Source: a virus (Duplodnaviria; Heunggongvirae; Uroviricota; Caudoviricetes). Taken from it: DNA of 8,767 bases. The stretch is taken from IMG/VR virus record IMGVR_UViG_2534682078_000033; one strand, 5' to 3'. Positions 1-3,000 of this stretch are shown piece by piece; the first letter of the stretch is position 1, and each line of letters opens with the position of its first letter. The position numbers were made by a program.

Positions 1-3000
1 TTGCTGAGTTTTGGATCGCTTGATGATGTTTCCCTGGCTGATGCCAGAAAACGCCGTAGCGAGTACAGGGCGTTAATTCGTGCCGGAACTGACCCGCAGG
101 ACCACGAGAGGCAAAAAAGAGAGACAGAGGCCCGAAGACAAGGGAACACGTTCGAAAATGTGGCAACAGCATGGTACCAGGTGAAAATCAGCCAGAATCT
201 GGCCCCCAATACGATTAAAGACATCTGGCGATCGCTGGAAAAATATGTATTCCCGTTCATCGGCAACACGCCAATAGACACCCTGACCGCTCGCAGGTTT
301 GTTGAGGTGCTTACCCCCATCAAGGAACGTGGCAACCTGGAAACGCTCAAGCGAGTTTTACAGCGTGTAAATGAGGTAATGGATTACGCCGCCAATAGTG
401 GGATGATTGATGCCAATCCGGCTATGAATGTGCGTAAGGCGTTCCCCTCCCCTGTAAAAAAACATATGCCAACAATCCGCCCCGAACAGCTGCCGGAGCT
501 TATGCAGGCTTTATCAGTATCGGCAACAGAACGGCAGACCAGATTACTGATTGAATGGCAGTTACTGACCGTAACCCGTCCCGTTGAAGCATCGTCGGCA
601 CGCTGGGAAGAAATCGACATGGAGGCGCAACGCTGGACCATACCCGCCGGACGCATGAAGATGCGCCGCGACCACGTTATCCCGCTTTGTGACCAGGCTA
701 TGGCAGTGCTGGAGGCTATGAAACCAATCAGCCACCACCGCGATTATGTTTTCCCAAGTCTGAAAGACCCACGGCAGCCGATGAACAGCCAGACAGCAAA
801 CGCAGCATTACGACGCATGGGGTTCGCTGGCGTGCTGGTGTCTCATGGATTACGCGCCATATTCAGCACAGCAGCGAACGAGGAAGGATTCGAGCCGGAC
901 GTAATCGAGGCGGCACTTGCCCACGTCGACACCAACGAAGTCAGACGGGCATACAACCGGAGCAACTACATAGAAAAACGCGTGGTGCTTATGCGCTGGT
1001 GGGGCGAATTTGTCGAGGCTGCGGCGACGGGCGTAACCCTCGCCAGTGGTAAAAGGGGTATCCGAGCCGTTTAGCTGTACAGAAAACCAGTAAAAACTAC
1101 GAAAACCATTTAAAACCGTCGTATAATTGCATCACATTTAACGACGAGGCCTTGAAAAATGAAACCGTTAAGATGCAAACAAATTTCAGATGCAATTGCG
1201 ACGGGCTGCAACTGGCCCTGATGGTTCAGCATGAATTTTGGTCAACCTACGATCCGGAGGACAGAACGACGGCCCCATCAAAAAAACAGGTAGTAGATTT
1301 CCTGGTATCCCGTGGAGCTTCCAGAAATCTGGCTGTAAGTATTGATAAGGTTGTACGTCCGGCATCCATGAAGACCGGAGGCAGGCCCAAAAAATGGCGG
1401 TAACAATCCTGAAAGCGGCAGAAATGCCGCTTTTTTTATAAATCCCTTTCAAATCATCAATATAAAAAACGGTGTATACCGTTTAAAAACGGTGAGTACT
1501 GTTTTTCCCTGCATCCGATGATTTACCGTATTTCTCACCGGAATACACCGGATTAATGAGGTAAATCACGATGGAAGCAATCAAAAAAGTCATCTTTCGC
1601 CAGGAAGTAAAAAAACTTATCCATATTAAGGCAGACAGCACGCTGCAAAGCATGATCAACGCCGGAGAATTCCCGCAGGGTTTTCGTGTCGGTTTGCGCC
1701 GTCGCGGATGGTATGAGGAAGACGTAATCGCATGGATGAAAGAACGCGAACAAGAAGCGCGCGGAACGACCGCTTAACATATATAGGGCAAATGATGAAC
1801 ATAAAAAAAGCGGCCCCGAAATGGAGCCACCTTTCTGAACAATTAACCCGCTGCGCCGTATGTGTCAACAATCATAAGCCTGGGCATGATAACCGCGATC
1901 AGGCTGGTGGGCAATTATCTTGCTTGTTGGGGCCGTATTGTGCTGCCATTTTCATCCGTTCAGAACGTGAATATTTTTTTAGAAACTCATCAAGGACAAA
2001 AGCGCATGGTGCGAATCTTTCTGATTCATGCTCGAGCGCCATATTTTCGTGCTCTCTGTTCGTTTTTTGCGATGGTGTATTGGTTGATTCTTTATTGGTC
2101 ATTGTGTGTACCTGTAAAGCAATGCGCCGTAGTACCTCACGCCACGGCGCTGATGTTTTTTATCCTTTGGGTTCAATACCGCGTTGCTGTAATTCTTTTC
2201 GGAGTACTCGCTTGATCCAGGTGGCTAAAGAAGTGTCACCGTCTGCTTTCGCTGCCTCTTCAAGTTGTGCTCTGAATTCTTCTGGTAGCCGCATTTGGTA
2301 TGGAGGCGATCGCTTTTCCAATGGTGTTGACATGGTAATTACCCTTAATTACTATAGTTACATGGTAATTACCATTGTACTTACCGTTATACAAAAAACA
2401 ACGCCCCGCAGTGGTGGCTCACATACGGGGCGTCTAACCAAACCATTAATTGAGGTAACGATTATGGCTATAAAAGAGCATAGCTTACTCTTTATACACA
2501 CACAAACGCCCCGGAAACGGAATAATCCGTTTCATAGCTCCGTTTTGTGTACTCATCCTGGCGGGCGATTCTTACGGGACTTTAGCCGCCGTGGGCAGCT
2601 TGCTAAAAATGCCTCCAACGCGAATAGTCCAGGTTTCATTTCTATCGGTATTAGTTGGATATTCAGAGGATTAGCCAGTTCGGCTTCAAGGCGAGCACAG
2701 GTTTCTAACTGCCTTTGCCGAATGATTTCATCTTCTTGCGTCTGCGTGTCTTGTATTGGTGATAGTGTGTTGTTGGTCATAGTACTGCCCTGTAAAGCAA
2801 TGCGCCGTAGTACCTCACACCACGGCGCTGATAGTGATTATTCTGATTCTTTGGCCTTGCGGCGCTGGAGTTCTTCACGTGCGACAGTGACGAGCTGCCC
2901 GATCTCCTCGGCGGCTTTGATTCCGAGTTTTTCCACCTGCGCCAGTGCATTGAGCGAAGAAATCAGGAGGTTTTCTCCGCTTCCTTCTGCCTGGCGGCGG

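What the first reader, a model, noticed from the sequence alone, without database searches (positions are those of the whole stretch)
1465..1506. Paired palindromic sites upstream of alpA as a candidate induction operator
AAACGGT-gtat-ACCGTTT is a perfect 7-bp inverted repeat, followed by a second partial palindrome that shares the direct repeat AAAAACGGTG 20 bp downstream. These sit where the alpA promoter should be. In PICI-like elements alpA expression is the induction switch, so whatever binds here (AlpA itself, a host factor, or a helper phage protein) could control the whole island.
Basis: seen in the sequence. Interest (0 to 1): 0.4.

Follow-up and report, generated by a model that had tools for sequence, protein, structure and literature searches.

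The report
Conserved paired palindromes before alpA
Two adjacent 18-bp palindromes lie in the only stretch where the promoter of the satellite island's master switch gene alpA can be, and selection has kept their arms fixed, so they are probably a regulator's docking site, though the regulator is not identified.

Summary
Site 1 (1467-1484, AAACGGT-gtat-ACCGTTT) is a perfect 7-4-7 palindrome. Site 2 (1487-1504) has one mismatch. The two units repeat every 20 bp.

The window is a PICI-type phage satellite at tRNA-Pro in E. coli E2855. The sites lie between a strong terminator (1411-1439) and a ribosome-binding-site-sequestering leader stem (1519-1527/1560-1568), so the alpA promoter must overlap them.

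The pair occurs in 374 of 5426 complete E. coli genomes, including Nissle 1917. Among 13 distinct variants, 1 of 28 arm columns varies, against 7 of 8 spacer columns and 25 of 37 flank columns.

The best reading is a same-face operator pair for a dimeric DNA-binding protein controlling alpA. The binder is unresolved:
- AlpA itself is possible, but orthologues with the same recognition helix in other genera lack the palindromes.
- A helper-phage or host factor is possible, but the motif is absent from lambda and phi80, and viral contigs gave only single-site matches consistent with chance.
- The co-occurring small ORF at 1173-1403 has no DNA-binding signature.

An RNA hairpin or terminator reading is not excluded.

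This is a new example of a known kind of element, and a concrete handle on how helpers switch on alpA.

The parts
1173..1403 (+). Small conserved ORF (76 aa, RefSeq WP_012817901.1) between int and alpA. It co-occurs with the palindromes. Its function is unknown.
1411..1439 (+). Intrinsic terminator T1, which ends the int/small-ORF transcript upstream of the sites.
   Evidence: A 10-bp stem, -15.4 kcal/mol, z -5.1, followed by U7. The terminator scan flags the equivalent element in relatives L003 and L004, although not in the window itself. In the ~78%-identity lineage the stem has a different sequence but the same structure.
1467..1484 (.). Site 1: the perfect palindrome AAACGGT-gtat-ACCGTTT.
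   Evidence: Across variants the arms vary only at the central base of the left arm (G/A/T), while the spacer varies at 4 of 4 positions: GTAT, TATA, GGGT, GAGT, GGAT.
1485..1506 (.). Site 2: AAAAACGGT-gagt-ACTGTTTTT, with 9-bp arms and one mismatch. The core 18-mer is 1487-1504. Its centre is 20 bp from the centre of site 1.
   Evidence: The arms are invariant in 13 variants. The spacer varies at 3 of 4 positions: GAGT, GGGA, GGGT, AGGT.
1478..1493 (.). Inner palindrome ACCGTTT-aa-AAACGGT, formed by the two inner arms. In the ~78% lineage the whole 42 bp forms one long inverted repeat.
   Evidence: The RNA fold joins the outer arms and the inner arms into one hairpin of -16 kcal/mol in both lineages.
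1519..1568 (+). Leader hairpin. The stem 1519-1527 (TGATTTACC) pairs with 1560-1568 (GGTAAATCA) and covers the Shine-Dalgarno GAGG at 1559-1562. An apical CCGG/CCGG stem pairs 1538-1541 with 1548-1551.
   Evidence: It is part of the minimum-free-energy fold, z -4.6. All cells are paired in 8 variants, with one compensatory A-U to U-A change.
1536..1555 (+). 10-bp direct repeat CACCGGAATA/CACCGGATTA just upstream of the Shine-Dalgarno sequence. It is a candidate AlpA box and is also the apex of the leader hairpin.
   Evidence: family D2. The CCGG-N5/6-CCGG arrangement is kept upstream of AlpA orthologues in Edwardsiella, Pectobacterium, Brenneria and Erwinia. EcCICFT073, which has a different AlpA allele, has GACACAAC repeats of 10-bp period at the same place.
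1571..1777 (+). alpA-like gene: a 68-aa winged-helix excisionase/regulator.
2515..2532 (.). Third palindrome AAACGGA-ataa-TCCGTTT, with the same outer hexamers AAACGG/CCGTTT. Whether it belongs to the same system is uncertain.
   Evidence: It lies 20 nt past the stop of the minus-strand ORF 2553-2780. It is identical in two relatives, but the whole region is 96% identical, so this gives no test of selection. It is absent from the other site-bearing loci fetched.

Best explanation
The two palindromes are a pair of protein-binding operators on the same face of the DNA. Half-site centres are 11 bp apart and site centres are 20 bp apart. They overlap the promoter of alpA, the activator gene that starts the life cycle of this PICI-type satellite.

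Shown:
- The dyads exist.
- Their arms are held constant by selection while spacers and flanks drift.
- They fill the only conserved DNA between the terminator that insulates alpA from int and the start of the alpA leader.

Inferred:
- A dimeric regulator binds each dyad, probably cooperatively as a dimer of dimers, and sets whether RNA polymerase can start at a promoter that has no recognisable -35/-10.

The binder is unresolved. My ranking within the overall confidence of 0.55 is as follows, with the remaining ~0.45 spread over the non-operator readings listed as rivals:
- AlpA itself, giving the positive feedback known for other alleles: about 0.25.
- A helper-phage or host-encoded factor that conveys the AlpA-independent helper signal: about 0.22.
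- The neighbouring 76-aa ORF acting as a repressor: about 0.08.
For: - Statistics of the motif.
- It is present in 374 of 5426 complete E. coli genomes, the same number that carry this alpA allele.
- In 13 distinct variants, 1 of 28 arm columns varies, against 7 of 8 spacer columns and 25 of 37 flank columns. Fisher p is 7e-6 and 8e-8; the sequences are not phylogenetically independent.
- Both sites are kept in a lineage whose AlpA is only 68% identical and whose flanks are rewritten.
- Terminator T1 lies upstream and is conserved as a structure.
- The leader stem has a compensatory change, which places the transcription start upstream of 1519.
- No sigma-70 consensus promoter is found on the + strand in three lineages, as expected for a factor-dependent promoter.
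- The only variable arm position is not compensated in the two-hairpin model, where it breaks the pair in 5 of 8 sequences. This suggests that sequence, not local pairing, is what is selected.
- Literature: the alpA promoter regions of EcCICFT073 and EcCIMP1 respond both to AlpA and, independently, to helper phage (PMC6092414, PMC11773190).
- The 7-4-7 dyad geometry and the two-turn spacing are typical of dimeric helix-turn-helix operators (established knowledge, recalled from memory).
Against: - No binding protein is identified and no transcription start is known.
- AlpA orthologues with an almost identical recognition helix in seven other genera lack the palindromes. AlpA/Xis-type winged helices usually bind head-to-tail direct repeats (recalled knowledge of lambda Xis and BldC). 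So AlpA is not an obvious fit.
- The motif is not found in lambda or phi80 or as a phage operator in IMG/VR.
- In the long-hairpin model the variable arm base always stays paired, G-U or A-U, so an RNA or DNA hairpin constraint is also compatible with the data.
- All sequences come from one species, so the conservation rests on few independent events.
Confidence: 0.55

Rival explanations
1. RNA-level element. The 42 bp are transcribed and fold into one long hairpin (1465-1506), or into alternative small hairpins followed by U5. This acts as a second terminator or attenuator, or as a bidirectional terminator, that keeps alpA silent until read through.
For: - The long hairpin is -16.1 kcal/mol (z -3.8) in the window and -16.6 kcal/mol in the ~78% lineage.
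- The A-run/hairpin/T-run shape is flagged as terminator-like on both strands.
- In the long-hairpin model 94% of cells are paired, and the one variable arm base switches between G-U and A-U.
Against: - No compensatory double change supports it, and its measures are not above shuffles (121/500).
- The stems are A-U rich, with only 3 G-C pairs per small hairpin.
- A strong canonical terminator already stands 26 bp upstream.
- With T1 in place there is no obvious promoter that would transcribe the whole element.
- There is no Rfam match.
Confidence: 0.17
2. All seven ACCG-core boxes between 1465 and 1555 (the four palindrome arms, TACCGTATT at 1524, and CACCGGAAT/CACCGGATT at 1536-1555) are AlpA boxes. 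AlpA coats the region as a multimer for autoregulation. This is the AlpA sub-case of the best explanation, extended to the whole region.
For: - YACYGKWWT occurs 6 times in 1460-1560 and 3 times in the other 8.6 kb. ACCG[GT] occurs 6 times against 0.34 expected (the pattern was chosen after seeing the data).
- The proximal repeats change with the AlpA allele: ACCGG here and in orthologues, GACACAAC in EcCICFT073.
- AACCGTTTAA also lies upstream of Pectobacterium alpA.
- AlpA self-activation is documented (PMC6092414).
Against: - Three of the seven boxes are equally explained by the leader hairpin (anti-Shine-Dalgarno strand and CCGG/CCGG stem).
- Alternating orientation is unusual for Xis-like proteins.
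- Orthologues do without the palindromes.
Confidence: 0.25
3. The 76-aa ORF (1173-1403) is an island-encoded repressor, a functional analogue of SaPI Stl, that binds the paired operators just downstream of its own gene. A helper-phage protein inactivates it.
For: - It co-occurs with the palindromes in every site-bearing locus fetched (L001-L007, tblastn; annotated in the four further loci).
- By tblastn it is absent from the AlpA-orthologue loci that lack them; the one distant domain match in L011 is listed under evidence against.
- It is under purifying selection.
- It is a three-helix bundle with a basic GGRPKKW tail.
Against: - The co-occurrence is between adjacent DNA in one lineage, so it is weak evidence.
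- It is homologous to the C-terminal domain of a larger uncharacterised protein.
- Positional analogues in PICMI satellites (iolg/icg) act in excision (PMC10803314).
- EcCICFT073 keeps alpA silent without such a gene (PMC6092414).
Confidence: 0.08
4. A duplicated repeat with no function of its own: a 20-bp tandem duplication that looks conserved only because the lineage is young.
For: - Natural alleles lack one unit. VG35A2 has an exact 20-bp deletion and RM9387 a 12-bp deletion.
- All data come from E. coli.
Against: The contrast between arms, spacers and flanks within the same sequences is not expected for neutral DNA. The lineages compared differ by about 22% over the region.
Confidence: 0.08

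Closest known systems
alpA promoter region of EcCICFT073, the prototype Gram-negative PICI (Fillol-Salom et al. 2018, PMC6092414)
   Same: The position is the same, between a co-oriented P4-type integrase gene and alpA. The island layout is the same: int, alpA, minus-strand small genes, Icd-like gene, DUF4222, primase or helicase. That promoter region is activated by AlpA and by helper phage, and the inducer is unknown.
   Different: The AlpA allele is different, at 26% identity. There is no small ORF and no palindromes. Instead there are arrays of 10-bp-period direct repeats, GACACAAC and GGAACAAC. No cis-element has been mapped in either island.
Tandem operators of lambdoid repressors (lambda OR1/OR2 type)
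   Same: Dyad-symmetric sites of 17-18 bp, two copies about two helical turns apart, in a promoter region that decides a lysis-like switch (recalled knowledge).
   Different: The island has no cI/cro-type gene. The sequence is unrelated to lambda or phi80 operators. No -35/-10 hexamers can be aligned with the sites.
SaPI Stl operator in the stl-str divergent region (Gram-positive PICIs)
   Different: A master repressor is known there and is relieved by a helper protein. Here no repressor is known, and Gram-negative PICIs are described as activator-driven (PMC6092414).
P4 late promoters PLL/Psid, controlled by P2 Cox/Ogr and P4 Vis/Delta
   Same: A satellite promoter read out by small helper- and satellite-encoded DNA-binding proteins. 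Vis is an AlpA homologue (PMC6092414; the rest is recalled knowledge).
   Different: The Ogr/Delta element TGT-N12-ACA and the cox boxes are not present in 1440-1570 (read). P4 sites are mostly direct repeats.
MerR-type operators (7-4-7 dyads between -35 and -10)
   Different: No -35/-10 pair with a 19-20 bp spacer flanks any of the three dyad centres. AlpA lacks the long coiled-coil dimerisation helix.

Membership tests
AlpA / excisionase-type winged-helix regulators (Pfam PF05930, HTH_17) | Sequence match to the family profile above its curated cut-off | tested here: not met
   PF05930 scores 17.8 bits against a cut-off of 21. HTH_17 scores 17.3 against 27. There is no NCBIfam hit. PHROG 66 and 2790, 'excisionase and transcriptional regulator', do match at E 1e-7.
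AlpA / excisionase-type winged-helix regulators (Pfam PF05930, HTH_17) | Winged-helix fold of AlpA/Xis proteins | tested here: met
AlpA / excisionase-type winged-helix regulators (Pfam PF05930, HTH_17) | Gene placed just downstream of, and co-oriented with, a tyrosine integrase of a satellite or island | tested here: met
   The integrase domains PF00589, PF22022 and PF13356 lie at 1-1074. The order tRNA-Pro, int, small ORF, alpA is seen.
Gram-negative phage-inducible chromosomal island (PICI / capsid-forming PICI) | int, alpA, replication gene with adjacent ori, and packaging genes, in one direction at a specific attachment site | tested here: met
   The parts are int, alpA, a RepA-type helicase (PF13481, 4728-6128), iterons at 6127-6340, terS (phrog_641) and a major capsid protein. 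The island appears cut short after the capsid gene, just before yejO.
Gram-negative phage-inducible chromosomal island (PICI / capsid-forming PICI) | Induction and transfer by a helper phage through alpA | not testable with these tools
   Known only for other islands (PMC6092414, PMC11773190, bioRxiv 10.1101/2022.09.08.507074).
Operator pair of a dimeric DNA-binding regulator | Dyad-symmetric sites whose arms are conserved and whose spacers are free to vary | tested here: met
   1 of 28 arm columns is variable, against 7 of 8 spacer columns and 25 of 37 flank columns.
Operator pair of a dimeric DNA-binding regulator | Copies spaced by a whole number of helical turns | tested here: met
   The centre-to-centre distance is 20 bp in all variants that have two sites.
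Operator pair of a dimeric DNA-binding regulator | Defined position relative to promoter hexamers or the transcription start | tested here: inconclusive
   The sites lie between T1 and the leader stem, so they must overlap the promoter. No sigma-70 -35/-10 is found on the + strand in three lineages, and no transcription-start data are available.
Operator pair of a dimeric DNA-binding regulator | A cognate protein that binds the sites | not testable with these tools
   The candidates AlpA, ORF76 and a helper or host factor were ranked only by comparative evidence.
Intrinsic (rho-independent) terminator | G+C-rich stem-loop directly followed by a U-run | tested here: inconclusive
   Flagged by the simple scan with 7 pairs, 3 of them G-C. 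The long hairpin is -16 kcal/mol and is followed by U5 that also pairs with the A-run. There is no covariation.
Helper-phage operator shared with lambda or phi80 | The same motif present in regulatory regions of known helper phages | tested here: not met
   Lambda has 2 matches at 3 mismatches against 1.98 expected. phi80 has 1 against 1.56. A BLAST of 1455-1560 against 50,697 phage records found nothing meaningful.

The most novel reading that the evidence does not exclude
The paired dyads are the receptor site for the still-unknown helper-phage signal in this PICI lineage. They would be either the binding site of a helper-encoded (or helper-controlled host) regulator that switches on alpA independently of AlpA, or the operator of a so far unrecognised island repressor (for example the 76-aa ORF) that a helper protein removes. 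That would mean some Gram-negative PICIs use an Stl-like derepression logic.
Probability: 0.25. Interest if true: 0.65.

Novelty: new member of a known kind. Interest (0 to 1): 0.4.

Why it matters
How helper phages turn on alpA, and with it the whole life cycle of Gram-negative PICIs, capsid-forming PICIs and PICMIs, is stated as an open question in the field (PMC6092414, PMC10803314, PMC11773190).

This lineage offers a short, sharply delimited and conserved cis-element in the right place. It is present in about 7% of complete E. coli genomes, including the laboratory-friendly strains Nissle 1917 and ATCC 25922. It also comes with natural one-site alleles.

That makes the question directly testable by reporter mutagenesis and DNA pull-down. 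In itself, an operator-like dyad pair in a regulated promoter is not surprising.

Tried and rejected
- **Rfam.** A search of the whole window at E up to 0.1 gave no family.
- **AlpA relatives, first attempts.** A single-protein scan of genome contigs found nothing, because GTDB holds one E. coli genome. A tighter alignment gave 12 loci.
- **Phage collection.** tblastn of AlpA found only a weak Ralstonia phage hit.
- **Helper-operator idea.** Lambda, phi80, the phage BLAST and the IMG/VR pattern scan were all negative or at chance level.
- **Integrase arm-type sites.** The half-site AAACNGT is not clustered near the ends of the island, and the sites lie more than 1.3 kb from attL.
- **Pseudomonas AlpA antiterminator model.** This is a different, larger protein with an ABE GGGACG inside the promoter (PMC9371919). 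Only the name is shared.
- **Resemblances recalled from memory and dropped:**
  - The SlmA site GTGAGTACTCAC matches 9 of 12 bases in the spacer region of site 2, but those bases vary between variants.
  - The LexA box has no ACAG 8 nt after CTGT.
  - CRP and FNR half-sites are absent.
  - The Ogr/Delta element TGT-N12-ACA is absent.
  - A lambda operator half-site, TATCACCGG, appears in the ~78% lineage at the equivalent of 1532-1540, but its second base varies between lineages (T[C/G/A]TCACCGG).
  - The GntR-type GT-N-AC core is compatible but unspecific.
- **ORF76 as a recognisable DNA-binding protein.** There is no family or PDB sequence match, and the fold match is weak. The afdb50 fold library was unavailable.
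- **Placing a sigma-70 promoter.** None was found in any register or lineage. TACTGT (1497-1502) is the only invariant TANNNT upstream of the leader, but it is AACTGT in the commonest allele.
- **Third palindrome.** Its relatives are too similar to test for selection.
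Full report
**What is in the sequence**

Positions 1465-1506 read AAAAACGGTGTATACCGTTT AAAAACGGTGAGTACTGTTTTT.
- Site 1 (1467-1484) is a perfect 7-4-7 palindrome.
- Site 2 (1487-1504) has one mismatch. With 9-bp arms, 1485-1493 against 1498-1506, it is 89% complementary.
- The two 20-nt units are 85% identical direct repeats with 20-bp spacing.

The motif is far above chance in the window. AAACGGN6CCGTTT with up to 1 mismatch gives 3 matches against 0.05 expected, and 0 of 200 shuffles reach 3. The third match is a separate perfect palindrome at 2515-2532.

**Context**

The window is 100% identical to E. coli E2855 chromosome 2,770,167-2,778,934. It is an island inserted next to tRNA-Pro and yejM. 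Its parts are:
- a P4-type tyrosine integrase at 1-1074;
- a 76-aa ORF at 1173-1403;
- a 68-aa winged-helix gene at 1571-1777;
- a block of minus-strand small genes, including an Arc-like ribbon-helix-helix protein and a YlcI/YnfO protein;
- an Icd-like gene, a DUF4222 gene and a RepA-type helicase at 4728-6128;
- iterons at 6127-6340;
- terS and a major capsid gene.

This is the 'integration / dynamic / replication / late' layout described for Gram-negative PICIs (PMC10111431). It matches EcCICFT073 gene for gene in its early part.

**Where the sites lie**

Upstream, 1411-1439 is a strong intrinsic terminator: a 10-bp stem of -15.4 kcal/mol followed by U7. A lineage that is only ~78% identical has a terminator of different sequence at the same place. 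So alpA is insulated from int transcription and needs its own promoter.

Downstream, 1519-1527 pairs with 1560-1568 and covers the Shine-Dalgarno GAGG. In 8 distinct variants every cell is paired, and one pair has switched from A-U to U-A. The mRNA should therefore start upstream of 1519.

The promoter must lie in about 1440-1515. The only conserved DNA there is the pair of palindromes. No sigma-70 consensus promoter is found on the + strand in three lineages. That fits a promoter that needs a factor.

**Conservation**

The 50-nt segment and the alpA segment are each found in 374 of 5426 complete E. coli genomes. These include Nissle 1917, ATCC 25922 and O26/O103/O111 strains.

I collected 15 distinct versions. 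In the 13 that have both sites:
- arms: 1 of 28 columns variable;
- spacers: 7 of 8 columns variable;
- flanks (1440-1464 and 1507-1518): 25 of 37 columns variable.

The spacers read GTAT, TATA, GGGT, GAGT and GGAT in site 1, and GAGT, GGGA, GGGT and AGGT in site 2. The only variable arm base is the centre of site 1's outer arm (G, A or T).

Two natural alleles have lost a unit. VG35A2 has an exact 20-bp deletion and RM9387 a 12-bp deletion.

This pattern is the signature of a constrained dyad. It rests on one species and few independent events.

**Who could bind**

*(a) AlpA.*
- AlpA activates its own promoter in EcCICFT073 and EcCIMP1 (PMC6092414, PMC11773190).
- Twelve loci from Pantoea, Edwardsiella, Pectobacterium, Brenneria, Erwinia, Citrobacter, E. 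albertii and an Escherichia species encode AlpA orthologues (52-57% identity) with an almost unchanged recognition region. None has the paired palindromes.
- What most of them share with the window is the CCGG-N5/6-CCGG repeat just upstream of the Shine-Dalgarno sequence (1536-1555 here).
- EcCICFT073, whose AlpA is a different allele, has GACACAAC repeats of 10-bp period at that position.
- So the proximal direct repeats track the AlpA allele and are the better candidates for AlpA boxes. They are also the apex of the leader hairpin, so this is not settled.
- The palindrome arms share an ACCG core with them, which keeps AlpA in play.

*(b) The 76-aa ORF.*
- It is confined to E. coli. tblastn finds it in every site-bearing locus and in none of the orthologue loci; a profile search found only a distant domain match in L011.
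- It is adjacent DNA, so this co-occurrence is weak evidence.
- It has no family match. It folds as a generic three-helix bundle.
- It is related to the C-terminal domain of a 245-aa uncharacterised protein in a related island.
- In PICMI satellites, small genes at this position act in excision (PMC10803314).

*(c) A helper-phage or host factor.*
- In EcCIMP1 the helper still induces the alpA promoter in an alpA mutant (PMC11773190). A second, AlpA-independent cis-input must therefore exist in such promoters, and a lineage-specific element would suit helper specificity.
- The motif is at chance level in lambda and phi80. It has no counterpart in 50,697 phage records by BLAST.

**RNA alternative**

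As RNA the 42 nt fold into one long hairpin of -16 kcal/mol in both lineages. The scan flags terminator-like shapes on both strands.
- In the two-hairpin model the variable base breaks its pair in 5 of 8 sequences, and there is no covariation.
- In the long-hairpin model it alternates between G-U and A-U, and 94% of cells pair, but this is not above shuffles.

I cannot exclude this reading. I rank it below the operator reading for three reasons: a strong terminator already stands 26 bp upstream, the stems are A-U rich, and no promoter is in a position to transcribe the whole element.

**Verdict**

- The finding is a real, selected cis-element in the alpA control region of a widespread E. coli PICI lineage.
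- The specific suggestion that a helper-phage operator motif would be found is not borne out.
- The identity of the binder remains open.
- It is a new example of a familiar kind of element, an operator-like dyad pair at a switch promoter. Its value is that it makes the open question of PICI induction in Gram-negative bacteria experimentally approachable.

Noticed in passing
window 1519-1527 with 1560-1568: A leader hairpin sequesters the alpA Shine-Dalgarno sequence (GAGG, 1559-1562). It is fully paired in 8 variants and has one compensatory A-U to U-A change between lineages. This suggests translational control of alpA in addition to promoter control.
   Followed up: partly
window 1536-1555; L143 9187-9245 and 9448-9480: 10-bp-period direct repeats lie immediately upstream of alpA and differ with the AlpA allele. 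They are CACCGGAAT here and in orthologues from other genera, and GACACAAC/GGAACAAC in EcCICFT073. They are candidate AlpA boxes.
   Followed up: partly
window 2515-2532: A third perfect palindrome, AAACGGA-ataa-TCCGTTT, has the same outer hexamers as the alpA sites. It lies 20 nt past the stop of the minus-strand ORF 2553-2780, and another TCCGTTT follows at 2539-2545. It is identical in two relatives, so there is no test of selection.
   Followed up: partly
window 2092-2166 and 2770-2844: A 75-nt direct repeat (83% identity) marks a duplicated minus-strand cassette. In each copy a ribbon-helix-helix or YlcI-type gene is followed by a small ORF that starts MTN... (1899-2102 and 2553-2780). 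The second small ORF is not annotated in RefSeq for this strain.
   Followed up: no
window 2330-2388: ACATGGTAATTACC is repeated two or three times right at the start of the Arc-like ribbon-helix-helix gene (2160-2333, minus strand). It is probably that protein's own operator.
   Followed up: no
window 2393-2440 and 3270-3310: Two similar stem-loops of the form CCCCGCA...ACGGGGC(G/T)TCTAACC. The second lies upstream of the Icd-like gene. The first lies in a stretch (2395-2512) that matches Icd-like gene regions in hundreds of other E. coli genomes, so it looks like a partial duplicate copy. They are possibly immunity RNAs of the P4 CI / P1 C4 kind that the literature mentions for PICIs. Rfam gave no hit.
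   Followed up: partly
window 6127-6340: AAAAAGTGGGGAG iterons (three 18-nt copies at spacings of 85 and 83 nt, inside 45-nt repeats) lie directly after the RepA-type helicase gene. This is the likely replication origin.
   Followed up: no
window 7146-7430: Direct and inverted AAAAGTTACA-type repeats lie in and just upstream of the terS gene. This is a possible packaging (pac) site.
   Followed up: no
window 1173-1403; L011 615-1349: The 76-aa ORF between int and alpA is homologous (E 3e-4 in a small search) to the C-terminal domain of a 245-aa uncharacterised protein at the same position in an Escherichia species island. It is a positional analogue of the iolg/icg genes of PICMI satellites.
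   Followed up: partly
protein P0022; loci L002, L145, L007: Natural rearrangements of the control region. P0022 is an in-frame ORF76::alpA fusion that deletes the sites. L002 has an exact 20-bp deletion that leaves one site. L145 has a 12-bp deletion. In L007, alpA is replaced after 9 codons by low-complexity sequence.
   Followed up: partly
window 8767 onward (L001 16768-17235): The island appears to end right after a 307-aa major capsid gene, next to the yejO pseudogene. Portal, protease and connector genes, which a complete capsid-forming PICI would have, are absent. It is probably a truncated element.
   Followed up: no
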